DNA from: an uncultured bacterium
Lineage (GTDB): Bacteria > Chlamydiota > Chlamydiia > Chlamydiales > SLFE01
DNA: 64,000 nucleotides
Reading direction: 5' to 3'
Assembly (NCBI GenBank): GCA_964584775.1
Contig: CAZPBC010000008.1
Span: 1,570 to 65,569, forward strand
In this document: positions 2,601 to 48,939 of the stretch, one piece after another
How positions within the stretch are numbered: position 1 is the stretch's first letter
Layout: every line of letters begins with the position of its first letter
Program-made: the position numbers and the translations under genes
Notes under the pieces: model-generated
What the model was told of the DNA's origin: nothing
The model's database searches: none
Seen by the model: the letters and a program-made list of their open reading frames with translations, nothing else

Positions 2601-2678
2601 TTTTAAGGAATTTGGAAATTTTAATTAAAATAATTTATAATACTTATATAGGGATAAAGTAAGAGAAAGGGGGCTTTT

Positions 2679-2856
2679 GCCTGGATATTTCATGGATGCT
2701 TGTAGAAATGGGGCAAAATGGACGACAGATTTAAAAGGTCTCATGCGAAGGGAAGGGTCTAGCACCCTTTCCGAGACGGAGATCTTTCGAAGCTGGCGAA
2801 AAGCATTTTGTTCCAGTTTTGCGAGAATTCAGGAAAAATCAAGGCCAGGCTTAAAA
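2679..2856 (+). promoter_or_regulatory. Copy A of a duplicated ~175-nt non-coding element upstream of a T3SS operon
   Basis: It aligns by hand with 8214-8386, with roughly three quarters of positions identical over the first ~150 nt. It contains a conserved stem-loop AAGGGT-n5-ACCCTT (2753-2769) and the conserved block GCATTTTGT-n3-CAGTTTTGCGAG. The flanking genes are unrelated. Confidence 0.55.
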
Positions 2857-5973: not shown

Positions 5974-6621
5974 ATGTGTGCTGAAAGAATCACAGAAGAG
6001 TCAATGAAAAAGTCTTCGAAAGAGACCATTAAGAAGGCCCTCGATGAGATGGGTGACGAACAAACACCCGAACAAAAAGAGAAAATTTTGAAGCTGACCC
6101 AAGACATCTACGGTGAGGGAAAAACCCCTGCAGATGCGATGGGTATCGACCCTGGAATGACGGAGGGCATGTATAGCTTTGCCCATCGTCTTTACACGCT
6201 GGGAAAGTATGATCAAGCTGCACAGATGTTTCGGCTACTGATCATGATGAATCCGATGGAAATGCGATTTCTACTCGGAGTTTCAGCGTGCTATCATATG
6301 CAAAAAGACTACGACCTAGCTTCTTCGAGTTACATGCTATGTTCCCTTGTCAACCCAAGAGACCCTGTCCCCTACTATCATGCATCCGACTGCTTTATTG
6401 AACTGGGTGACTACGAGATGGCAGAAAAGTGTCTCAAGCTGTGCATAGCCTACTGTGAGATTGGAGAGGAGTACGATATGATGAAAGACCGTGCTCAGAT
6501 CTCCCTAAAAGGCGTGCTGGAAAAACGTCAAAGCGAAAGATCAGCGAAGAAAACGGAAAAGAGCGCGAAAAAGCCCCCTCCAGCAGAGCCACCTCAAACT
6601 GAAGCGAAGAAAAGCGCTTAA
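5974..6621 (+). CDS. Class II T3SS chaperone, LcrH/SycD/Scc2-3 family (TPR)
   Basis: The TPR core reads YSFAHRLYTLGKYDQAAQMFRLLIMMNP...LGVSACYHMQKDYDLASSSY...PVPYYHASDCFIELGDYEMAEKCL, which matches the SycD/LcrH pattern. The RBS is GAGGAGG. The tail is lysine-rich. Confidence 0.85.
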   Translation: MCAERITEESMKKSSKETIKKALDEMGDEQTPEQKEKILKLTQDIYGEGKTPADAMGIDPGMTEGMYSFAHRLYTLGKYDQAAQMFRLLIMMNPMEMRFLLGVSACYHMQKDYDLASSSYMLCSLVNPRDPVPYYHASDCFIELGDYEMAEKCLKLCIAYCEIGEEYDMMKDRAQISLKGVLEKRQSERSAKKTEKSAKKPPPAEPPQTEAKKSA

Positions 6622-6654: not shown

Positions 6655-8214
6655 ATGGGACTCACGCCCGATGTTGGTGGAACAAGAGGTCTGGGAAGAC
6701 CTCCAAATTTAAATTATACGGAACAGGAACAGTCAGCCAATACAGAACACCTCAAGCAGGTGTTTGCTCAAGTTCCTAATACGATTGATGTTCCCCTCAC
6801 CAAGGTGGGTGGGGATATCATGAAGTATGAGTCACATTCTGGGATGCCCAAGCTGGCGCGGAATGTGAACATCTTTAGTGGCATGACGAGAGCTGATCCG
6901 CAGCTAAAAAACCCTCAAGAGCAGAAGAAATTCGAAGAGCTTGAGGAGAAGCTCCCTTTTGGCCTTTCAATCGGCCTCAAACGCTCTTTAGAGCTTCCTT
7001 GGGAAGAGCGCGACCCCGTATTTATCCTCCTTGAAAAGATCTTAAGATTTGCAGCGAAGTCCACAACGTGGATCGATATCACAAGCGAAATCCAATCTGA
7101 CGCCTTCGCTGGCAGTATCTCAAGGTATGCTCAGCATCCCGATAAGATGCTGGAAGGATGGTGTGACTTAGCACTGGAAATCCGTGCGGAGCTGCGCTTG
7201 ATTGCGAAACACGAAGGTCTCCTCTCGCAGTTGAAACAAGATTGTATCGAGAATATCAAAGTCTTAAACCGCCTCCTCAATTTTGCAAGAGCGATCATCA
7301 AAGCGAAAAAACCTGAGAAAGAGAAGCTCGTCAAAAAGTTCAATAAAGAGATCACCTTCCTTCTGAGTGAAATCAGTACAGGAAAGCTCACCCACCCCTT
7401 TGCCATGACTTTCTCTCTACTAGAGAACGCTCTCGCCCTTGGACGGTTTTTCAGTTTAGAGAAAGCCAGTCCCACACTCCTTGGAGTGGATGCTGCTCTC
7501 GCTTACCTTTTTGCTAGGGAGCCAACCTTTGTCGATCTTGGGGAAGAGACACAAAAGCTGGGCGAACAGCTCTTTCCTGACGAAATGGAAGATCCAGCTC
7601 TCCAGCATTTTTTACCAAAAATTGCAGCACTGGGAGGACTCTTGATGACCACGCTCACCCTCTCTGCACCAGGCATCTATGAATTAAAGGTACGCGATGA
7701 TCCCCGCTTTGAGGAAAAGACGGTCCAGTGTCTAGCACTGCGCTTAAGTGGAACGCTCTTCTCTTCAGCAGATATAGAAGAGATCTTTATGAAGTGCATT
7801 TTCCCCATCCTCGGAGAAACACGCGTGAAGGCGCATGTAAAGTCGCTCGTCCAGTTTCTCACATTACAGCCTCTTCTTTTAATCGCTGGGATGGGAGAGA
7901 TCGGAAATGCGATGCTAAAAGGATGGAAGAAGTCCTTCTCTAGAAGTTTGAAGCAGCTCAAAGAAGTAGAGAAAGAGCTTCGAGTTTCTAAAAAAGGCCT
8001 TGTCAGCCTACAACACGGCCTCATGGCTGTGAAAAAAGAGTCCTCAAAAGCCTATTGGAAGGCGTTAGAAGACCTGATCAGAAAACAGGTCGACTTCTCA
8101 AAGTTTAGAGATGAATGGAAAGCCTACCGCCTGACGGTGCAGGGACTCATTAAAGGATTTTTAGAAAGTGAAGGCCAACAAAAGGTGATGGACTTCAGGC
8201 AGGTATCTGCTTAG
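6655..8214 (+). CDS. Putative translocator-like T3SS substrate (cargo of the preceding chaperone)
   Basis: A 519-aa ORF directly after the LcrH-like gene. It has an ILLEKILRFAAK motif plus a coiled coil, then two isolated hydrophobic segments (LPKIAALGGLLMTTLTLSAPGIY and LVQFLTLQPLLLIAGMGEIG). This resembles SctE architecture. Confidence 0.5.
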   Translation: MGLTPDVGGTRGLGRPPNLNYTEQEQSANTEHLKQVFAQVPNTIDVPLTKVGGDIMKYESHSGMPKLARNVNIFSGMTRADPQLKNPQEQKKFEELEEKLPFGLSIGLKRSLELPWEERDPVFILLEKILRFAAKSTTWIDITSEIQSDAFAGSISRYAQHPDKMLEGWCDLALEIRAELRLIAKHEGLLSQLKQDCIENIKVLNRLLNFARAIIKAKKPEKEKLVKKFNKEITFLLSEISTGKLTHPFAMTFSLLENALALGRFFSLEKASPTLLGVDAALAYLFAREPTFVDLGEETQKLGEQLFPDEMEDPALQHFLPKIAALGGLLMTTLTLSAPGIYELKVRDDPRFEEKTVQCLALRLSGTLFSSADIEEIFMKCIFPILGETRVKAHVKSLVQFLTLQPLLLIAGMGEIGNAMLKGWKKSFSRSLKQLKEVEKELRVSKKGLVSLQHGLMAVKKESSKAYWKALEDLIRKQVDFSKFRDEWKAYRLTVQGLIKGFLESEGQQKVMDFRQVSA

Positions 8215-8386
8215 CCTGGATTTTTTATGAAGAGTTGTAAAAATGAGACTAAATGATCGACAAATTCAACAGAACTCACTCGAAAGAAAGGGTTTAGTAC
8301 CCTTTTTGAGAGAGAAGTCTGTTGAAGGTGACGAAAGCATTTTGTGACAGTTTTGCGAGTGTTTATGAAATTTCCGGGCCTTAAAA
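8214..8386 (+). promoter_or_regulatory. Copy B of the duplicated ~175-nt non-coding element
   Basis: It aligns with 2679-2856. The conserved stem-loop AAGGGT-n5-ACCCTT is at 8288-8304. It ends about 10 nt before the ATG at 8397 of the second LcrH-like chaperone. Confidence 0.55.
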
Positions 8387-8396
8387 GGAGAAAGCA

Positions 8397-8981
8397 ATGA
8401 GAAAAGAGGAAGAGATGATCGATGCTTTAATGGAGCTTGCTAAAGACGACGCTCCGAAAGTGAAAGACGGTCTCGGCGCCATTGCTGAGAATATGTTTAC
8501 GAAAGGGATGGTTCCTAAAGACGCCATGGGAATCCAAGATACAGACGCAGAATTTTTGTATGCACAAGCCTACCAGCTCTACAACATTGGTAAGTATAAA
8601 GATTCAAGAAGTCTTTTTGGCAGTTTGATGGTGATGGATCCTACCGAACCGAAGTACATTTTTGGACATGCAGCGAGCTCTCACATGCTGAAACAGTATG
8701 ACACTGCGGCAAAAGCTTATGTTCAGCAGGCGATGCTCAGTAATGATGACCCTGTCCCCTACTACCATGCGGCAGATTGCTATCTTCAGCTCAACGACAA
8801 ATTGAGTGCCCTCGTGACACTTCGAATTGTTGTGAAGCGATCGACTGGAAAACCGGAGTTCGAGACGATTAAAGAACGTGCAGAGATGACCATCAAAAAC
8901 CTTGAAGAAGACTTAGAAGTCGAAGGCCTTGAGGGAGCTCCAACAGATTTGGAGAAACCAAAGGAAGAAAAACAAGCTTAG
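8397..8981 (+). CDS. Class II T3SS chaperone, LcrH/SycD/Scc2-3 family (second copy)
   Basis: It is a paralogue of 5974-6621, with YAQAYQLYNIGKYKDSRSLFGSLMVMDP...PVPYYHAADCYLQLNDKLSA. The RBS is AAGGAG. Confidence 0.85.
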   Translation: MRKEEEMIDALMELAKDDAPKVKDGLGAIAENMFTKGMVPKDAMGIQDTDAEFLYAQAYQLYNIGKYKDSRSLFGSLMVMDPTEPKYIFGHAASSHMLKQYDTAAKAYVQQAMLSNDDPVPYYHAADCYLQLNDKLSALVTLRIVVKRSTGKPEFETIKERAEMTIKNLEEDLEVEGLEGAPTDLEKPKEEKQA

Positions 8982-12451: not shown

Positions 12452-14890
12452 ATGGATTTAGGTGGTTTAGATATATCCAAGCTGATGGGTCCGGGTGGAG
12501 ATCTCAAAATGGGAGAGACCACTGAACAAACCCAGACAGCTGCAGGTCTTGCCGCGCTTCAAGAAAGCCAGTCACAGGCTGGAGAAGGAGGAGAGCAACA
12601 GATCAACCAAGGATCTCCTAACTTACCCCCTCCCTCCATTGGTCTTTTAAAGGAGTTTTTCTCACAGGAGCTCTCCCTTGAAGAGATCGAAGAGGCGTTG
12701 AAGTTCATCACAGAATCAGAAGAGTTCGAGACCTATGCTAGAAAGAACTTAAACCTGGATAGCAAATCTCCAGCCGAACGCCTCAAGGAGATCATCGACG
12801 AGTACTTCAGCGACGAAGAAGGAGTTCCGGTTGAGGTTCTGTTAAGAAAGGCTCTTGCGAAGATGCTAGAAATGTTACTCAGTGGCAATCCTGACCTCTC
12901 TGCAGATCTTGGGGGTCTCTTCAACCGCGTCCAATCACAAGTGGTGAATAACTCGGTCCCTGAAGGGAAATTTGCGATGGAAGCTATCAAACAGTTCTTT
13001 GCTTCAACCGGCGTTGAGGCAGACGAGCAGATGATTGCGGATGAGTTTCTTGCTGCTTTAAAAACGACCTTTGAGAATGAAGAGAAGGTCTTTTCTCTAG
13101 ACAGTCCCTTCTTGAAGACGGCAGTGGAAGAGGTCACAATGGAGTACCTCATCAAATCTGGCATGTCTGCTGAAGAGGCCGAGAATTTTATCAGCGAACA
13201 ACTCCCCGCTCTCACCATCGGAAGTGAATTCAACAACTGGCTGGGAGGTGTTTCGACTGCTCAGGTACAAGATATCCCACCACCACCACCCGTGGTCAAT
13301 ACAGAGGCGGTGGATGAGTTATCAGCTGAACTCACTGCCCTGCTCGATGCTCCGACACTGGGACCTGGCAAAATCAGTATCCTTGAATTTATGAAGATGG
13401 TCAAAGAGGCGATTCAAGAGCTTGAAGACCTCATCAATGAAATTATCTTGCAGGACTTAGAGCTCCAGAAGAGTCAAAGGCTTTCTCAGCTAGAGGTCAT
13501 CGATGCTGCTGCAGCCCTCTTTATGGGTGGAGAGATCAATCCTGAAGATATTGAGAAGTTCCTTGCTGGAGATGAGAGTCTCGACTCTGCGACAAAGATG
13601 CAGATTGAGATGCTCGCTGAAGAAGGAGAGCTCCAAGAGCTGAGAGATAAAAAAGCAGCCGGTGAAAATATTGAAGGAGCCACTAGAAGCCTAGCTGATA
13701 AGATCAACGAACGGCTAGACAACTACAGCGGATCGGCAGCCTTAGTCCTTCTTGATATCCTAGACGCCTTTGTGAAGATGAAGGAAGCAGAAGCGGCTGA
13801 GAAAAATGAACAGGCAGATGCCGCTGCATCGGATGGGCAAGGAGACATCATTAGTAACTATACTGAAGAGGTGACCAAGATTGTCAATGAGATGCTCCAA
13901 AAGCTCACAGGACTTGTCAACCTTGGAACCATTGAGATGGAGTCTCTCTCTCAGTTTGGTAAAGCGATCGACAAGTTGATGGAGCAGCTTAAGGGAGAAG
14001 ATCAAGCAGGTGGAAAGGACCTCCTCCGCTCCCTGGCTGAGTTAATCAGCGCCAAACTGGGCGGCCCTGGTGGACTAGAGCAAAAAGTGGCCGGTCTCGA
14101 TGTGAGCTCGATGGTTCAAGCCCTTCTTGCTACAGGAAACAAGGGTGTCAACGAGATGAGTGGAGGCACCTCCTCACAGATGATCACCGCCTACCTCGAC
14201 GATGCGGCCATCAATGCCCTCATGATAGCAAGCTTCTTGCAGGGTGCAGGAATGCTAGAGAGTGGCGAAGGAACCACCGAGCTAGGACAGCTTTCTGGAG
14301 TCGCCGTCACCATAGGCCTGGTTGCCTCGCTCCTGGGAGGAGGGGCAAGTGTCAGCGATGTGAAAGATGTGCTGAACTCACTACAAAACATCTCCTCGAG
14401 TGTGGCCTCAACCGGTTTTGCAGGCTTCCTTGGAGGCGCGATCGCAGACAGCCAAGGACTTTCTGAGGGCGACCAAGCCGCACTCACAGGAATATTAAGT
14501 GGAATTCTCTCGAGTGTCGGAAAAACCTCGAACGAAGAGGAGACTGAGGCAACAGGTGAGATCGTAAAACAATTGAGACAACTGTTGAAAGCACTTGAGC
14601 AGGTTCTCCAAAACCTTCTTGCTGGCGTCTCGAATGGATCGATCCCTCTAGAAGGGATCGGTGCGGCGGTCGCAGCCGGAGTTGGAGAGGCCGTAGGAGC
14701 TTTTGTGGGTGGAGTTTCCGGCTCCAGTGGACAAGACCTCGATCAACTCATCCAACAGCTTTCAGGAGCACTGCAGGGGCAGCTGACAACCAACGCAGCC
14801 TCCCCTGAAGCCACACAATTTTTGGTCAATGCCATGCTAGCAGCAGGAATGGGACCTGCTCAGATGGGTGGACCTCAGATGGCTGCATAA
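12452..14890 (+). CDS. Large acidic helical protein of the translocator-associated family, putative T3SS substrate
   Basis: An 812-aa ORF with the RBS AAGGAGG. It carries the ISILEFMKMVKEAIQELEDL motif shared with the neighbouring SctE-like proteins. Only weak Gly/Ala-rich hydrophobic stretches occur near the C-terminus. Confidence 0.6.
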   Translation: MDLGGLDISKLMGPGGDLKMGETTEQTQTAAGLAALQESQSQAGEGGEQQINQGSPNLPPPSIGLLKEFFSQELSLEEIEEALKFITESEEFETYARKNLNLDSKSPAERLKEIIDEYFSDEEGVPVEVLLRKALAKMLEMLLSGNPDLSADLGGLFNRVQSQVVNNSVPEGKFAMEAIKQFFASTGVEADEQMIADEFLAALKTTFENEEKVFSLDSPFLKTAVEEVTMEYLIKSGMSAEEAENFISEQLPALTIGSEFNNWLGGVSTAQVQDIPPPPPVVNTEAVDELSAELTALLDAPTLGPGKISILEFMKMVKEAIQELEDLINEIILQDLELQKSQRLSQLEVIDAAAALFMGGEINPEDIEKFLAGDESLDSATKMQIEMLAEEGELQELRDKKAAGENIEGATRSLADKINERLDNYSGSAALVLLDILDAFVKMKEAEAAEKNEQADAAASDGQGDIISNYTEEVTKIVNEMLQKLTGLVNLGTIEMESLSQFGKAIDKLMEQLKGEDQAGGKDLLRSLAELISAKLGGPGGLEQKVAGLDVSSMVQALLATGNKGVNEMSGGTSSQMITAYLDDAAINALMIASFLQGAGMLESGEGTTELGQLSGVAVTIGLVASLLGGGASVSDVKDVLNSLQNISSSVASTGFAGFLGGAIADSQGLSEGDQAALTGILSGILSSVGKTSNEEETEATGEIVKQLRQLLKALEQVLQNLLAGVSNGSIPLEGIGAAVAAGVGEAVGAFVGGVSGSSGQDLDQLIQQLSGALQGQLTTNAASPEATQFLVNAMLAAGMGPAQMGGPQMAA

Positions 14891-14912
14891 AACACCTCTT
14901 GGAGTCAATGCA

Positions 14913-17726
14913 ATGAACATCAACCCCAACATTTCAGGTTATGGTGTTGAGTATCAACAGGCGCTCAATGAGCTGCAGGAGATCAACCAAGCAACAATAG
15001 AACAACTTTCAAACGATGAGGAGGTCTCTGACGTCTTGTCTACGAGTACAGAGGCCCTTGGTGATCTCGAAATAGACCCACAAAACCCACGCCTCCCTAA
15101 CCCAAACCAAGCTCTTCTATCCAGCGTTCCTACCAACCCTCAACTCATTGATTATTTTATTCAAAACTCTGAGGCGATGAAAGAGCTGATTTTCTCAGTG
15201 AGTTACTATAGTGATTTAGTGAATGCGGGCATCCCTGAAGCCGAAATTGAATCGATGGTCAAGAGTATTTTAGTCAACAACTCCAACTCTCCATATACGC
15301 CCGATGCCCTTGTCAAAAGAGCGATGGGAGAGATCATGCATCAAGAGCTTCAGGCAGAACCGAATGCGGAACTAGAAACGGAATGGTTCAATCTTAGAGC
15401 TGAGCTTTTATCCCAAAATGAGCCGACTGCAAAACTGCTCATCCAACAGTGGACACAGCACTTTATTCAGGAAGGGAACACTCCTGAAAGAGCTGCCGAA
15501 CTGGCTAACAAAGCAGCGGTTCTCTCTGTCGATCAAACCCTTTCCGAAGAAGGAGTGATCACTCCCTTTTACGGGATGCATCCAGCGATTGATGGAGCCG
15601 TTCTTGCAGCGATCAAAACCTCACTCGAAGGAGTCGAAAATGCCCAGTTTAAGGCTGCACTCGCCCAAGATCTAGTGAGTGCAGGAAACATGATAACTAA
15701 TGGGGTCAGCGGGGCGACACAAGTCGAAAACCCCGAACAACTCTCACAGGATGCGATCGATGCGCTGGCTGCTAAAAACGAAGGCCACAAGGAGTACATC
15801 GAAGAACTACTTGTCATGCTTCAACAAGTTCCGATGAACTCACAGGAAAAAGTGGCCATTCTCGAGTTCATGAAGTTTGTTGCGATTGCAATCAATAACA
15901 TGGACGCCGCCATTGCTCAAATGAACATCGACGATACGAGACTGACGAAAAGCGAAGCGCAGATGAAGATTGAAACCGCGGTCGCAAATATGGAGAACAA
16001 AATCAGTGAGATCAAAGAAGCCATGAGAAAGCTGCGTGAAATGCAGGAGAAGGTTGAAAAGATGAAAAACATGTTTGGGGTCTTCTCTGTACTCGCAGAT
16101 GTGATGATGAGTGTCATGATGGCCGTTTTTGGAGTGATTATTGTCGCTGTTGCTCCCCTTCTTGCAGCAACAGTCACGGTGCTTGTCAGCTACGTGATTG
16201 GTGCCCAGGTTTTTCTCGCAGCCCTTGGGATACTTGGTATGATCATCGGGACGATCATCGCGATCATCTTATTCGCAACTGGAGCAGGAATTCCTTTAGC
16301 TATTGTGGTCGAAGTCATTGTGATCGTTGTTTTAGCTGTTATTACTATAGTTGCTGAGATACTCGTCATGATTGTCACTGCTATTATAGGAGTGATCGCG
16401 TTGATACTGGGAGCCATACTGCTCATGGCTCTCTTAGTCTTGGCTCTGCTCGCCGTGAGTAAGGCACTCACAGAACACACCAATGTCACAGAAGATCTTG
16501 CGGATTCTTTTGGGCCAGCCCTACTCAATCTCCTCGATCAAGTTGGAATTGATGTCGATCTAGATACTTGTTACTGGATCTGTGCCATTGCACCCATTGT
16601 GATTGTGGCGGTGATCTTGGTCGCCGTCCCTCTCATATTAATTCTTGCGATCGTTCTCGTCCCCATCATTGCTGTGATTGGTACTCCTCTGATGCTCAGT
16701 ATCCCCGTCGTCTTTCTTGCTGCTCTGGCCGTCGCTTGGATTGCACTTTTAGCGTTTGTGGTTGTCGCCTCTCTCCTTCCTTCTTTCGTGGCCATTTTTG
16801 CTTTCGCTGCGGCACTCCTAGTCGCCATTGTGCTGCTTCTTGTTGCTGTCTTATTTTGGATCGCAGCCCTCATTGTCGCACTCCTTCCTGTCATTTTAGT
16901 AGTCCTTTTAGCCATCATTTTGGCAGCAGCGGGGCTCATTGCCGCTACGCTTCTCCCAGCAATCATCATGACGATGCTGCAGTGGATTCCGATGTTCCTC
17001 AAAAAAGCAGGAGCCTACAAGTCAATCGCTGAAGGACTTGGTGAAGCAATGGGACTCTCTGAAGAAGATATCGAAGGACTTGAATTGGCACTCACGGGAA
17101 TGGGAGCCATGGCCACCGCCTCCTCAGGACAACAGGTGAATGAAAATGTCATGAGCGGTCCCAGTGCTGAAGAGCAAGAAGAGATGGACGCGATGGGAAC
17201 CGAATATGGTATGGAGACCGAAATGGAAGGTCTTGAAGCGACCATTGATCGAATTTCAAAATATATCGGGATGCTCAACGGCCCGAACATCACGGAGGAG
17301 TATCGAGAAGAGTATGAGAAGAAAAGCATCGGCTCCCAGGCTGCCCAAATTGAAGAGCTGATGAAAGTCATGAAGCAGGTGAAAATTCAGCTTCAAAAAG
17401 TCCTCGATGCGATGACCAAAGGAGGCACAGGAGAAGGGATGGATCTAGGAAGTGCTCAACAGGAGCTCTCCACCTTCATCCAGACTTCACTGACTTCGGC
17501 ATTGCCGAGCCTTAAAAAAATCCTCCCAGAAGACCTAGCGAATATGGCCACACCTGAGAACACTGGAGGAGCAGGAGGAGATATCATCGGATCCCTACAA
17601 TCACTTGCTGTGCAGTCCATGCCTGATGCGGACCGCATGCGCGAAAATGCGCAAAGGGATCTCGATCGTTACTTGGCAGAGGAAGAAGAGGAAAAGTATG
17701 AAACGGCCAATGTGTTTATGAGTTAA
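14913..17726 (+). CDS. Giant SctE/CopB-like paralogue A with a ~300-aa hydrophobic core
   Basis: The ATG at 14913 has GGAG 8 nt upstream. It has a VAILEFMKFVAIAINNMD motif plus a coiled coil. An almost uninterrupted I/V/L/A-rich region follows, from about residue 390 to 690, with one polar loop. The C-terminus is acidic. It is collinear with 17747-20557. Confidence 0.8.
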   Translation: MNINPNISGYGVEYQQALNELQEINQATIEQLSNDEEVSDVLSTSTEALGDLEIDPQNPRLPNPNQALLSSVPTNPQLIDYFIQNSEAMKELIFSVSYYSDLVNAGIPEAEIESMVKSILVNNSNSPYTPDALVKRAMGEIMHQELQAEPNAELETEWFNLRAELLSQNEPTAKLLIQQWTQHFIQEGNTPERAAELANKAAVLSVDQTLSEEGVITPFYGMHPAIDGAVLAAIKTSLEGVENAQFKAALAQDLVSAGNMITNGVSGATQVENPEQLSQDAIDALAAKNEGHKEYIEELLVMLQQVPMNSQEKVAILEFMKFVAIAINNMDAAIAQMNIDDTRLTKSEAQMKIETAVANMENKISEIKEAMRKLREMQEKVEKMKNMFGVFSVLADVMMSVMMAVFGVIIVAVAPLLAATVTVLVSYVIGAQVFLAALGILGMIIGTIIAIILFATGAGIPLAIVVEVIVIVVLAVITIVAEILVMIVTAIIGVIALILGAILLMALLVLALLAVSKALTEHTNVTEDLADSFGPALLNLLDQVGIDVDLDTCYWICAIAPIVIVAVILVAVPLILILAIVLVPIIAVIGTPLMLSIPVVFLAALAVAWIALLAFVVVASLLPSFVAIFAFAAALLVAIVLLLVAVLFWIAALIVALLPVILVVLLAIILAAAGLIAATLLPAIIMTMLQWIPMFLKKAGAYKSIAEGLGEAMGLSEEDIEGLELALTGMGAMATASSGQQVNENVMSGPSAEEQEEMDAMGTEYGMETEMEGLEATIDRISKYIGMLNGPNITEEYREEYEKKSIGSQAAQIEELMKVMKQVKIQLQKVLDAMTKGGTGEGMDLGSAQQELSTFIQTSLTSALPSLKKILPEDLANMATPENTGGAGGDIIGSLQSLAVQSMPDADRMRENAQRDLDRYLAEEEEEKYETANVFMS

Positions 17727-44342: not shown

Positions 44343-44530
44343 TTAAATATCCTTCGAAGAACCTATATCCGCACTATAGAAAAGGAGCTGGTTCTTGTCA
44401 AAGAGAGGGCTCACGTGCCCCCCTGTGAAAAACATTTCGAAGCATTACTACAAGTGCTCATGAAATATCCAGACTAGCGAGAAACGAGCCACTCACTTAG
44501 ACTGAGTGTGTTCTGACCAAGGAGATTACA

Positions 44531-45141: not shown

Positions 45142-45215
45142 TGGGTCTTGAAGGACTCGAACCTTCGACCCCCTCATTAAAAGTGAGGTGCTCTAACCAA
45201 CTGAGCTAAAGACCC
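45142..45215 (-). tRNA. tRNA-Lys (anticodon UUU)
   Basis: The reverse complement GGGTCTTTAGCTCAGTTGGTTAGAGCACCTCACTTTTAATGAGGGGGTCGAAGGTTCGAGTCCTTCAAGACCCA folds as a cloverleaf with anticodon loop CTTTTAA. Confidence 0.9.
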
Positions 45216-45222
45216 AAACTGT

Positions 45223-45297
45223 TGACCCCAAGGGGATTCGAACCCCTGTTACTAGAATGAAAATCTAGTGTCCTAGGCCAGGCTAGACGATGGGGCC
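45223..45297 (-). tRNA. tRNA-Glu (anticodon UUC)
   Basis: The reverse complement GGCCCCATCGTCTAGCCTGGCCTAGGACACTAGATTTTCATTCTAGTAACAGGGGTTCGAATCCCCTTGGGGTCA closely resembles E. coli tRNA-Glu. The anticodon loop is TTTTCAT. Confidence 0.9.
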
Positions 45298-48371: not shown

Positions 48372-48693
48372 TTTCGGTCTTGGGGTTTAATCGTGGAAAA
48401 AGGATACCAAATCTTTGGATTTATGGGAATGCCTTCTAGCTTGGAATGGGTTAGCTTTTTTCCGGATTGCGGCGCGGACTTTTAGCATACTTTGAGCGGA
48501 TCCCCCTTCTTGGGACGAAAGGTGGAGGAGTTTTGGGAATTTTTCCGCCAAATTCACAAATTTTTTTCGGATTATTATTTTTTCGCCGCAGGGAAACCCC
48601 TCAATGGGGTTTGTCAAAGAAAAAAAGGGGAAAAGAGCGGAAAATTTGAGTGGAGTTGAGCGAAAAAATCCCAAACCCACTCGATCGGAAAAA

Positions 48694-48764
48694 AGCGCCT
48701 GATCAGAATCGAACTGACACTCGTAGCTTGGAAGGCTACTGTTCTACCATTGAACTACAGGCGC
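48694..48764 (-). tRNA. tRNA-Gly (anticodon UCC)
   Basis: The reverse complement GCGCCTGTAGTTCAATGGTAGAACAGTAGCCTTCCAAGCTACGAGTGTCAGTTCGATTCTGATCAGGCGCT folds as a cloverleaf with anticodon loop CTTCCAA. Confidence 0.9.
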
Positions 48765-48866
48765 ATTCGTAGACAACGGCATGAATTATCGGCGAAAGAG
48801 GGAATTTCCTGCAAGGTTCCATTGTCCAAAATGCGCTGGAGCTCTATATTAAACGGAGTCATTTTT

Positions 48867-48939
48867 GGGGCGTTAGCTCAGTTGGTAGAGCGCAACAATG
48901 GCATTGTTGAGGTCAGCGGTTCGACCCCGCTACGCTCCA
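48867..48939 (+). tRNA. tRNA-Ala (anticodon GGC)
   Basis: GGGGCGTTAGCTCAGTTGGTAGAGCGCAACAATGGCATTGTTGAGGTCAGCGGTTCGACCCCGCTACGCTCCA carries the G3:U70 identity pair. The anticodon loop is ATGGCAT. Confidence 0.9.

What the first reader, a model, noticed from the sequence alone, without database searches (positions are those of the whole stretch)
2679..2856. A ~175-nt non-coding element duplicated upstream of two T3SS operons (second copy at 8214-8386)
The intergenic regions preceding the 437-aa ORF (ATG 2882) and the second LcrH-like chaperone (ATG 8397) align along about 175 nt. The flanking genes are unrelated. By hand count, about three quarters of positions are identical over the first ~150 nt. 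Shared features include GCCTGGAT at the 5' end, a stem-loop AAGGGT-n5-ACCCTT (2753-2769 and 8288-8304) and the block GCATTTTGT-n3-CAGTTTTGCGAG. The 66-codon ORF that overlaps copy A (2677-2877) is broken by an in-frame stop and an indel in copy B, so conservation is at the DNA or RNA level. It could be a shared promoter plus activator box. That would be analogous to the MxiE/InvF boxes, which work with IpgC/SicA-type chaperones, and LcrH-type chaperones are encoded right here. It could instead be a structured 5' leader or a small RNA.
Basis: seen in the sequence. Interest (0 to 1): 0.65.

Follow-up and report, generated by a model that had tools for sequence, protein, structure and literature searches.

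The report
Mobile palindromic repeat in T3SS cluster
The two look-alike stretches are copies of a small non-coding mobile repeat (a MITE-like 168-base hairpin element) that is scattered around this uncultured chlamydial genome and landed twice in its type III secretion gene cluster. It is not a dedicated secretion-system control sequence.

Summary
Window 2679-2850 and 8214-8379 align at about 74% identity (blastn E 3e-24). The sense-strand folds are -78 and -74 kcal/mol (z -6.7 and -9.2). The other strand is 26-29 kcal/mol weaker.

The element is not specific to the secretion system. Three more full-length copies (71-84% identical) lie between housekeeping genes elsewhere, apparently on the same 620-kb contig. 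A 43-nt fragment lies at window 44432-44474.

Four syntenic loci from related Chlamydiia lack the element. Where copy B sits they have only 11-21 nt (GCTTAAAGGAG..ATG). In the window this site reads GCTTA[element]CTTAAAAGGAG, an insertion with a target duplication.

The copies have ~15-nt terminal inverted repeats (GCCTGGATATTTCAT) and TA-type flanks. No reading frame is open in all copies. Four of five abut a stop codon.

Best reading: a new MITE-like family, analogous to Correia and ERIC elements. Copy A sits in the cluster's 5' leader. Copy B sits in an intercistronic gap. Both are probably co-transcribed as hairpins.

One oddity remains. The hairpin favours one strand (37 G.U against 3 A.C mirrored positions).

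Interest is low to moderate.

The parts
2679..2850 (+). Copy A, full length. It is a long imperfect palindrome or hairpin with a copy-specific ~5-nt insertion near its 3' end. It lies between the promoter-like site and the RBS of the 437-aa gene (ATG 2882).
   Evidence: CM R1 190.8 bits and R2 158.3 bits. RNA fold -77.9 kcal/mol, z -6.7, against -51.9 on the other strand.
8214..8379 (+). Copy B, full length. It is inserted between the stop codon of the 519-aa gene and the RBS of the second SycD/LcrH chaperone gene (ATG 8397).
   Evidence: CM R1 188.2 bits and R2 174.3 bits. RNA fold -73.5 kcal/mol, z -9.2, against -44.7 on the other strand. Empty orthologous sites in L007-L010.
8210..8213 (+). 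Left copy of the CTTA target duplication of copy B. Its TA plus the element's first G now form the TAG stop of the 519-aa gene (8212-8214).
   Evidence: Sequence. Relatives read GCTTAAAGGAG at this site.
8380..8383 (+). Right copy of the CTTA duplication, followed by the RBS AAAGGAG (8384-8390).
   Evidence: Sequence and comparison with relatives.
2753..2769 (+). Apex of the copy-A hairpin (AAGGGT-CTAGC-ACCCTT). The equivalent in copy B is 8288-8304.
   Evidence: Folds. Helix 3 is 98% paired across copies.
44432..44474 (-). Truncated remnant of the element's 5' end (GTCTGGATATTTCATG...), flank CTA, no hairpin. It lies in a divergent intergenic region unrelated to T3SS.
   Evidence: One mismatch to the 16-nt terminal repeat. 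nhmmer with the family profile gives E 0.0014 over profile positions 3-43. Alignment; no stable fold.
2612..2641 (+). Context, not part of the element: a sigma-70-like promoter match (TTGGAA-18-TATAAT) upstream of copy A. It places copy A in the 5' leader.
   Evidence: The TATAAT is also present upstream of the orthologous gene in L007, L009 and L011.

Best explanation
The two regions are independent insertions of a ~168-bp non-coding, non-autonomous mobile element (a MITE-like palindromic repeat). The element is dispersed in this uncultured Chlamydiia genome.

Anatomy: ~15-nt terminal inverted repeats (consensus GCCTGGATATTTCAT), arms that are complementary along their whole length, insertion at TA-containing sites with a short target duplication, and no coding capacity. 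The target sites are mostly the TAA or TAG stop codon of a gene.

Shown: the repeat family, the hairpin, the empty orthologous sites, the flank pattern and the contexts.

Inferred:
(i) A transposase encoded elsewhere moves it. TA targets suggest, but do not prove, an IS630/Tc1-like enzyme.
(ii) Copy A is transcribed as part of the 5' leader of the T3SS translocator/chaperone array, and copy B as part of an intercistronic spacer. Each would put an ~80-bp imperfect duplex into the mRNA.
(iii) By analogy with Correia and ERIC elements, such hairpins can be cut or bound by double-strand-specific RNases and can change the stability of flanking mRNA segments. Copy B also replaces an 11-21-nt gap, as seen in relatives, with 182 nt. 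That probably breaks any translational coupling between the 519-aa gene and the chaperone gene.

No dedicated T3SS regulatory role is required to explain the similarity.
For: Repeat family:
- Five full-length copies: window 2679-2850 and 8214-8379, and L052 4021-4188(+), 9988-10155(+) and 20009-20175(-). CM scores are 122-191 bits.
- Pairwise identity is 71-84%.
- There is also a 43-nt fragment at 44432-44474.
- The L052 copies were found because an ORF called across one of them (P0033) matched the pseudo-ORF of copy A.
- P0001, P0033 and the L052 DnaN all report a longest contig of 620,111 bp, so they appear to share one contig.

Insertion:
- Relatives L007, L008, L009 and L010 keep the gene order but have 11-21 nt at site B. 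They read GCTTAA(A)GGAG..ATG. The window reads GCTTA[166 nt]CTTAAAAGGAG.
- No family member occurs in about 68 kb of relatives' loci.

Ends:
- The consensus 5' end and the reverse complement of the 3' end are identical for 15 nt.
- Flanks are CTA|..|TAG (C2), CTA|..|TAC (C1), CTTA|..|CTTA (B) and CTA| (fragment).
- Stop codons of flanking genes overlap or abut copies B, C1 (both sides), C2 (both sides) and C3.

Non-coding: every frame has stops in some copy.

Hairpin:
- z -6.7 and -9.2.
- 93% of 384 cells are paired. Seven pairs show compensatory double changes, against 2.8 +/- 1.2 in shuffles. Sliding the partner column drops pairing to 40-52%.

Other:
- No promoter or terminator signal inside the copies.
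- No Rfam family matches.
- These features fit the published definition of bacterial MITEs: under 200 bp, terminal inverted repeats, TA at the termini, target duplication, long stem-loop transcripts (PMC2229807).
Against: - No partner transposase or autonomous element with matching ends was found. Only about 100 kb of this genome could be read, and the window has no second pair of terminal repeats.
- The length of the target duplication is ambiguous: CTTA at B, TA at C1 and C2, imperfect at A (TTTT|..|TTAA) and C3 (CAA|..|TAA).
- Presence/absence evidence comes from distant relatives (41-64% protein identity), not from strains of the same species. All six contigs of this organism are 100% identical to the window over their overlap.
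- Copy number is extrapolated from five copies.
- The strong single-strand bias of the hairpin (37 G.U against 3 A.C, 49 purine-purine against 10 pyrimidine-pyrimidine mirrored positions) is not expected for a purely double-stranded cut-and-paste element.
- Transcription through the copies and any RNase cleavage are untested.
Confidence: 0.85

Rival explanations
1. A T3SS-dedicated cis-regulatory element: a shared promoter with an activator box (MxiE/InvF-box-like, acting with an LcrH/IpgC-type chaperone), or a dedicated structured leader controlling the two chaperone/translocator units.
For: Both window copies lie directly upstream of genes of one T3SS translocator/chaperone array and share its orientation. 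The 3' block GCATTTTGT-n2-CAGTTTTGCGAG is nearly invariant.
Against: Three full copies and one fragment lie in non-T3SS contexts. Orthologous sites in four related T3SS loci are empty. No promoter-like site lies inside either copy, and a promoter-like site whose TATAAT is shared with relatives lies upstream of copy A. A and B are not each other's closest relatives. The invariant block is equally conserved in the housekeeping copies.
Confidence: 0.04
2. A palindromic repeat mobilised or selected as a single strand. One version is a REPIN/PATE-like element moved as single-stranded DNA by an HUH (RAYT or IS200/IS605-type) transposase. Another is a family of exapted RNA hairpins whose sense-strand fold is itself under selection.
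For: The strand asymmetry recurs in every copy, including C3 on the opposite chromosomal strand. Sense against antisense folds differ by 13-31 kcal/mol. Copy-specific one-sided changes at paired sites give 17 G.U against 2 A.C. Across all mirrored positions there are 37 G.U against 3 A.C and 49 purine-purine against 10 pyrimidine-pyrimidine. The local background GC skew is near zero while the element's is +0.19 to +0.30.
Against: There is an apparent target duplication and TA flanks. From established knowledge, IS200/IS605-type insertion makes no duplication. No GTAG or CGTC REP head is present, and neither half is a hairpin on its own (sequence). C3 lies antisense to both neighbouring genes, so selection on a co-transcribed RNA cannot explain its bias. 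The asymmetry may simply be inherited from master copies.
Confidence: 0.1
3. A relic of a local segmental duplication within the T3SS cluster.
For: The two SycD/LcrH genes are paralogues and share an 80%-identical 44-nt stretch (6361-6404 against 8748-8791).
Against: Relatives have both paralogous chaperone units but no element. Copy A is not upstream of a chaperone gene. The similarity stops exactly at the palindrome's ends. Further copies lie far away. A and B are each closer to C2 than to each other.
Confidence: 0.01

Closest known systems
Correia / NEMIS elements of Neisseria (bacterial MITE)
   Same: Size of 100-170 bp, non-coding, terminal inverted repeats, TA at the termini with target duplication, and location next to or between genes. 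They are co-transcribed and fold into long hairpins. Correia hairpins are bound or cut by RNase III and change expression of the neighbouring gene (PMC2229807; PMC2649163 abstract; PMC10969869).
   Different: The two do not share a host phylum (Chlamydiota here). I saw no IHF-site consensus in the family consensus (by eye only) and the scan found no promoter in copies A or B. Complementarity here runs the whole length rather than mainly in 24-26-nt terminal repeats. RNase III cleavage is untested here. Sequence similarity to Correia was not tested directly.
ERIC / IRU elements of enterobacteria
   Same: An imperfect palindrome along the whole element, TA ends, intergenic position and co-transcription with flanking genes. 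ERIC's effect on mRNA stability depends on orientation (PMC2229807). From my own knowledge, Wilson and Sharp 2006, cited there, reported substitution patterns consistent with RNA structure.
   Different: ERIC is 127 bp with 7-bp terminal repeats and often carries open reading frames. The present element is 166-172 bp with ~15-nt terminal repeats and no conserved frame.
RUP of Streptococcus pneumoniae and its proposed mobiliser IS630-Spn1
   Same: A TA target, terminal repeats and an intergenic, non-coding position. It is the model for how a TA-targeting MITE is moved by an IS630-family transposase (PMC2229807).
   Different: For RUP the matching insertion sequence is known. Here no partner transposase has been seen.
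YPAL / RU-2 of Yersinia
   Same: 168 bp, not AT-rich, a long stem-loop, and filled against empty sites between related genomes (PMC2229807).
   Different: YPAL lacks TA termini, has internal rather than terminal inverted repeats, and makes variable 3-26-bp duplications.
MxiE / InvF boxes
   Same: Only the neighbourhood: IpgC/SicA/LcrH-class chaperone genes are nearby.
   Different: From established knowledge, those boxes are short promoter-proximal DNA motifs restricted to secretion-regulon promoters. This is a 168-bp palindrome also found at housekeeping genes and absent from relatives' T3SS loci.

Membership tests
Bacterial MITE (criteria of Delihas 2008, PMC2229807) | Small (under about 200 bp) and encoding no protein | tested here: met
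   166-172 bp. Every one of the six frames has stops in at least one copy.
Bacterial MITE (criteria of Delihas 2008, PMC2229807) | Terminal inverted repeats | tested here: met
   The consensus 5' end GCCTGGATATTTCAT equals the reverse complement of the 3' end for 15 nt. Terminal-repeat matches occur at both ends of A and B.
Bacterial MITE (criteria of Delihas 2008, PMC2229807) | Several dispersed copies in unrelated genomic contexts | tested here: met
   Five full copies and one fragment in about 100 kb read from this genome, in T3SS and housekeeping contexts.
Bacterial MITE (criteria of Delihas 2008, PMC2229807) | Target-site duplication, or TA at the termini | tested here: met
   B: CTTA on both sides, with an empty site GCTTAAAGGAG in relatives. 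C1 and C2: TA on both sides. A and C3 are imperfect. The exact length (2, 3 or 4 bp) is unresolved.
Bacterial MITE (criteria of Delihas 2008, PMC2229807) | Filled against empty sites between related genomes | tested here: met
   Site B is empty in L007, L008, L009 and L010, and site A's spacer is shorter in L007, L009 and L011. These are distant relatives. No within-species polymorphism was seen.
Bacterial MITE (criteria of Delihas 2008, PMC2229807) | Transcript folds into a long stable stem-loop | tested here: met
   Predicted only: -68 to -83 kcal/mol, z -6.7 and -9.2. Covariation supports the fold. Transcription itself was not tested.
Bacterial MITE (criteria of Delihas 2008, PMC2229807) | A transposase-encoding element with matching terminal repeats that could mobilise it | not testable with these tools
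   The rest of the genome could not be fetched. The genome and metagenome pattern scans returned only chance hits and did not contain this organism.
T3SS activator box (MxiE/InvF-box type) | Restricted to promoters of the secretion regulon | tested here: not met
   Copies lie between methyltransferase, IMPDH/NMO-like and SPOUT-methyltransferase genes and next to glycosyltransferase neighbours.
T3SS activator box (MxiE/InvF-box type) | Lies at or overlaps a promoter of the regulated gene | tested here: not met
   No sigma-70-like match lies inside either copy. The match at 2612-2641 is upstream of copy A. Other sigma factors were not scanned.
T3SS activator box (MxiE/InvF-box type) | Conserved at orthologous promoters in related organisms | tested here: not met
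   Absent from four related loci with the same gene order.
REP / REPIN (RAYT-mobilised palindromes) | A 20-40-nt REP unit with a GTAG or CGTC head, two inverted units forming the hairpin, and an associated RAYT gene | tested here: not met
   The ends read GCCTGG, not GTAG or CGTC, and each arm is not itself a hairpin. The REP definition comes from the PMC3733652 abstract. Presence of a RAYT gene was not testable.
Any curated RNA family (Rfam 15) | Score at or above a family's gathering threshold | tested here: not met
   The window gives only four tRNAs. The permissive scan gives only far-below-threshold hits, for example a plant miRNA precursor at 22.9 bits against 144.

The most novel reading that the evidence does not exclude
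The hairpin is constrained as a single strand of fixed polarity. G.U pairs and conserved purine-purine mismatches occur in all copies, whichever chromosomal strand they lie on. On this reading the family is not just selfish DNA. It could be a mobile RNA-structure module, for example an RNase III entry or protection site that uncouples segments of polycistronic mRNAs such as the T3SS translocator/chaperone array. Alternatively it could be an element that moves through a single-stranded intermediate by a route not yet described for TA-duplicating MITEs.
Probability: 0.15. Interest if true: 0.55.

Novelty: new member of a known kind. Interest (0 to 1): 0.27.

Why it matters
It removes a tempting but wrong lead, a secretion-system control box. 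It documents a MITE-like family in an uncultured member of the Chlamydiia. Two recent MITE surveys that I searched never mention chlamydiae.

Practical consequences:
- The repeat breaks assemblies; contig L002 ends inside copy B.
- It creates spurious ORF calls such as P0033.
- It has remodelled gene ends, giving new stop codons and C-termini at four of five sites.
- It has put an ~80-bp RNA duplex into the leader and into one intercistronic gap of a virulence-type gene cluster. That could alter the stoichiometry of translocators and chaperones.

The strand-biased substitution pattern is a small, testable puzzle about how such palindromic repeats are maintained.

Tried and rejected
1. Pattern scan of 185,579 species genomes with GCATTTTGTNNCAGTTTTGC gave 35 single hits in unrelated phyla, at roughly the level I estimated for chance. 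The window's own genome is not in that collection, so this says nothing about copy number.
2. The metagenome scan with the 5'-arm pattern gave two AT-rich chance hits and missed this organism's own contigs. It is uninformative.
3. The viral-contig scan gave 0 hits.
4. A protein-database search with an alignment of the pseudo-translations found nothing.
5. The hairpin at 48532-48676 first looked like a diverged copy (R1 24.8 bits). It fell to 15.3 bits with the five-copy model, so I rejected it as a member.
6. The CM hit L007 1271-1431 is a different element with ~44-nt near-perfect terminal repeats and no sequence similarity.
7. Coding hypothesis (66-aa ORF): rejected.
8. Intrinsic terminator: no U-tract follows either hairpin.
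9. Replication-strand mutation bias as the cause of the G.U excess: rejected. C3 is inverted relative to C1 and C2 within 16 kb and shows the same bias, and local GC skew is about 0.
10. Integron attC, retron and CRISPR readings: I considered these from knowledge and rejected them. There are no R'/R'' core sites, no reverse transcriptase was seen near the copies in the fetched loci's Pfam calls and there is no array. Relatives keep an identical gene order without the element.

Full report
**Observation**

The intergenic region before the 437-aa gene hits 8211-8370 at 74.5% identity over 161 nt, E 2.7e-24 within the window. A global alignment gives 74% over 166 columns. The quoted motifs are present at the quoted coordinates. 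The spacer in GCATTTTGT..CAGTTTTGCGAG is 2 nt, not 3. The pseudo-ORF over copy A is broken in copy B, and no frame is open in all members of the family.

Each copy also matches its own reverse complement along its whole length.

| Region | Sense fold (kcal/mol) | z | Other strand (kcal/mol) |
|---|---|---|---|
| 2670-2860 | -77.9 | -6.7 | -51.9 |
| 8205-8395 | -73.5 | -9.2 | -44.7 |

The opposite strands fold much less well because many pairs are G.U.

**Organism and context**

- Homologues of the flanking proteins carry names such as 'Chlamydiia bacterium'.
- Related loci encode CesT and CdsD-type proteins downstream.
- Both TPR proteins in the window pass the SycD/LcrH chaperone model.
- The organism is known only from metagenome assemblies. 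Six contigs from different samples are 100% identical to the window over their overlap.

**Copy B is an insertion**

Four related loci (L007, L008, L009, L010/L011) keep the order clpX, large ORF, 437-aa gene, ~460-aa gene, chaperone 1, ~520-aa gene, chaperone 2, and so on. They have only 11-21 nt between the ~520-aa gene and chaperone 2, reading GCTTAAAGGAG..ATG or similar.

The window reads GCTTA[GCCTGGA...CCGGGC]CTTAAAAGGAG. That is the same junction with 166 nt inserted, CTTA on both sides, and the stop codon remade from TAA to TAG.

**Copy A lies in the leader**

Upstream of the 437-aa gene the relatives have spacers of 84-139 nt that include a TATAAT. The window has 281 nt. Its TTGGAA-18-TATAAT match lies at 2612-2641, upstream of the element. 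With the element removed the spacer is about 109 nt. Copy A therefore lies in the leader, and copy B in an internal gap of what looks like one operon-like array.

**It is a dispersed family**

The two large DNA pattern scans were uninformative, because neither collection contained this organism.

A protein-level search worked instead. phmmer of the 66-aa pseudo-ORF against 1.84 billion representatives gave one hit, P0033 (E 8e-6). P0033 is an ORF called across another copy of the element. Its 20-kb locus (L052) holds three full-length copies:

- C1, 4021-4188 (+)
- C2, 9988-10155 (+)
- C3, 20009-20175 (-)

They score 128-153 bits with the two-copy model. P0001, P0033 and the L052 DnaN all report a longest contig of 620,111 bp, so I infer they lie on one contig of one genome.

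- C1 and C2 lie between convergent housekeeping genes and overlap both stop codons.
- C3 abuts the TAG of the upstream gene and is antisense to both neighbours.
- Pairwise identities are 71-84%. A and B are each closer to C2 than to each other.
- A five-copy model and an nhmmer profile found no more full copies in the window, its flanks (L001, L049) or the relatives.
- The profile did pick up a 43-nt 5' fragment at 44432-44474, minus strand, with a CTA flank (E 0.0014).

**Ends**

The consensus is GCCTGGATATTTCATGAA...TTTATGAAATATCCAGGC, with 15 nt of perfect terminal inverted repeat.

| Copy | Flanks |
|---|---|
| C2 | CTA\|..\|TAG |
| C1 | CTA\|..\|TAC |
| B | CTTA\|..\|CTTA |
| C3 | CAA\|..\|TAA |
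| A | TTTT\|..\|TTAA |

The pattern indicates a TA-type target with a short duplication whose exact length I cannot fix. Reading frames that enter from the 5' side usually meet a stop at the junction (TA|G), at element positions 15-17 or at 25-27. This would make insertion at gene ends tolerable.

**Structure across copies**

- On the six-row alignment 93% of 384 cells pair.
- Seven pairs carry compensatory double changes, against 2.8 +/- 1.2 in shuffles (1 of 500 reach it).
- The covariation score is 0.177 against 0.143 (0 of 500).
- Sliding the partner by 1-3 columns drops pairing to 40-52%.
- Between A and B alone, one-sided transitions at paired sites keep the pair 10 times and break it once. 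55 of 64 pairs survive, against 46 +/- 2.4 in permutations.

**An unexplained asymmetry**

I counted all mirrored positions, including symmetric internal loops, so that the choice of structure does not bias the count. The five copies hold 37 G.U against 3 A.C cells. They hold 49 purine-purine against 10 pyrimidine-pyrimidine mismatches. Seven purine-purine mismatches are shared by most or all copies.

Copy-specific changes give 17 G.U against 2 A.C, including 6 against 1 in C3. C3 lies on the other chromosomal strand and is antisense to local genes. The element's GC skew is +0.19 to +0.30 in every copy, against a background near zero.

Replication or transcription bias after insertion does not explain this. 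Either the bias was inherited from master copies, or a single-stranded form of fixed polarity (RNA or DNA) is under selection.

**Mechanism**

Shown: a non-coding palindromic repeat with terminal inverted repeats, TA-type target duplication, empty orthologous sites and dispersed copies. These are the published defining features of bacterial MITEs (PMC2229807).

Inferred:
- Mobilisation in trans by a transposase not seen here.
- Co-transcription of copies A and B with the T3SS array.
- Effects on mRNA processing or stability, like those documented for Correia elements (RNase III) and ERIC elements (orientation-dependent stability).
- Loss of tight coupling between the 519-aa gene and chaperone 2.

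No promoter-like or terminator-like signal coincides with either copy. No Rfam family matches.

**Comparison and novelty**

The element works like a Correia or ERIC-type MITE, but I have no evidence that it belongs to either family. It is a new family in a phylum for which two MITE surveys I checked mention nothing. The segmental-duplication fallback fails too. The kind of element is well known, so interest is modest. The strand-polar hairpin conservation is the one feature worth following up.

Noticed in passing
window 14868-17726 and 17747-20557: Two adjacent large ORFs (952 and 936 aa) just downstream of the T3SS array are tandem paralogues. Repeat families D1 and D2 are 84-90% identical at a constant 2831-nt offset.
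   Followed up: partly
window 21497-21715 (inside ORF 21155-23140): Degenerate tandem repeats of 30-75 nt that encode an acidic Glu/Thr/Ala/Val-rich stretch.
   Followed up: no
window 48532-48676: A separate ~145-nt hairpin (-52.8 kcal/mol, z -3.4) sits in the intergenic region next to a tRNA gene (48694-48764).
   Followed up: yes
L007 1271-1431 (related Chlamydiia contig, JGI 3300023214): An unrelated 161-nt element with ~44-nt near-perfect terminal inverted repeats (ACCCCTGATTGTGCCCTAATCTCGTCTGACAG...) and a DNA fold z of -10.6. It lies between clpX and the large ORF upstream of the same T3SS cluster. Relatives therefore carry MITE-like elements of their own.
   Followed up: partly
L052 10001-10297 (P0033) and L052 19989-20297: Gene callers have produced ORFs that run across element copies: a 98-aa 'protein', and the first ~55 codons of a 320-aa gene. 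These are probably annotation artefacts caused by the repeat.
   Followed up: partly
L002 (contig end at 12297, inside copy B): One metagenome contig of this organism ends inside copy B, as expected if the repeat breaks short-read assemblies.
   Followed up: no
L055 1410-1577 compared with L052 4021-4188: The only population variant seen in any copy is one G-to-A change at alignment column 32. It turns a G-C pair into an A.C mismatch.
   Followed up: no
window 45142-45297 and 48694-48939: Four tRNA genes in two small clusters. The 43-nt element fragment (44432-44474) lies about 670 nt from the first cluster.
   Followed up: no
family alignment columns 21/147, 30/138, 33/135, 34/134, 47/118, 51/114, 65/100: Purine-purine mismatches (A.G, G.A, G.G), conserved in most or all copies, punctuate the hairpin at roughly regular intervals. 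Their meaning is unknown.
   Followed up: partly
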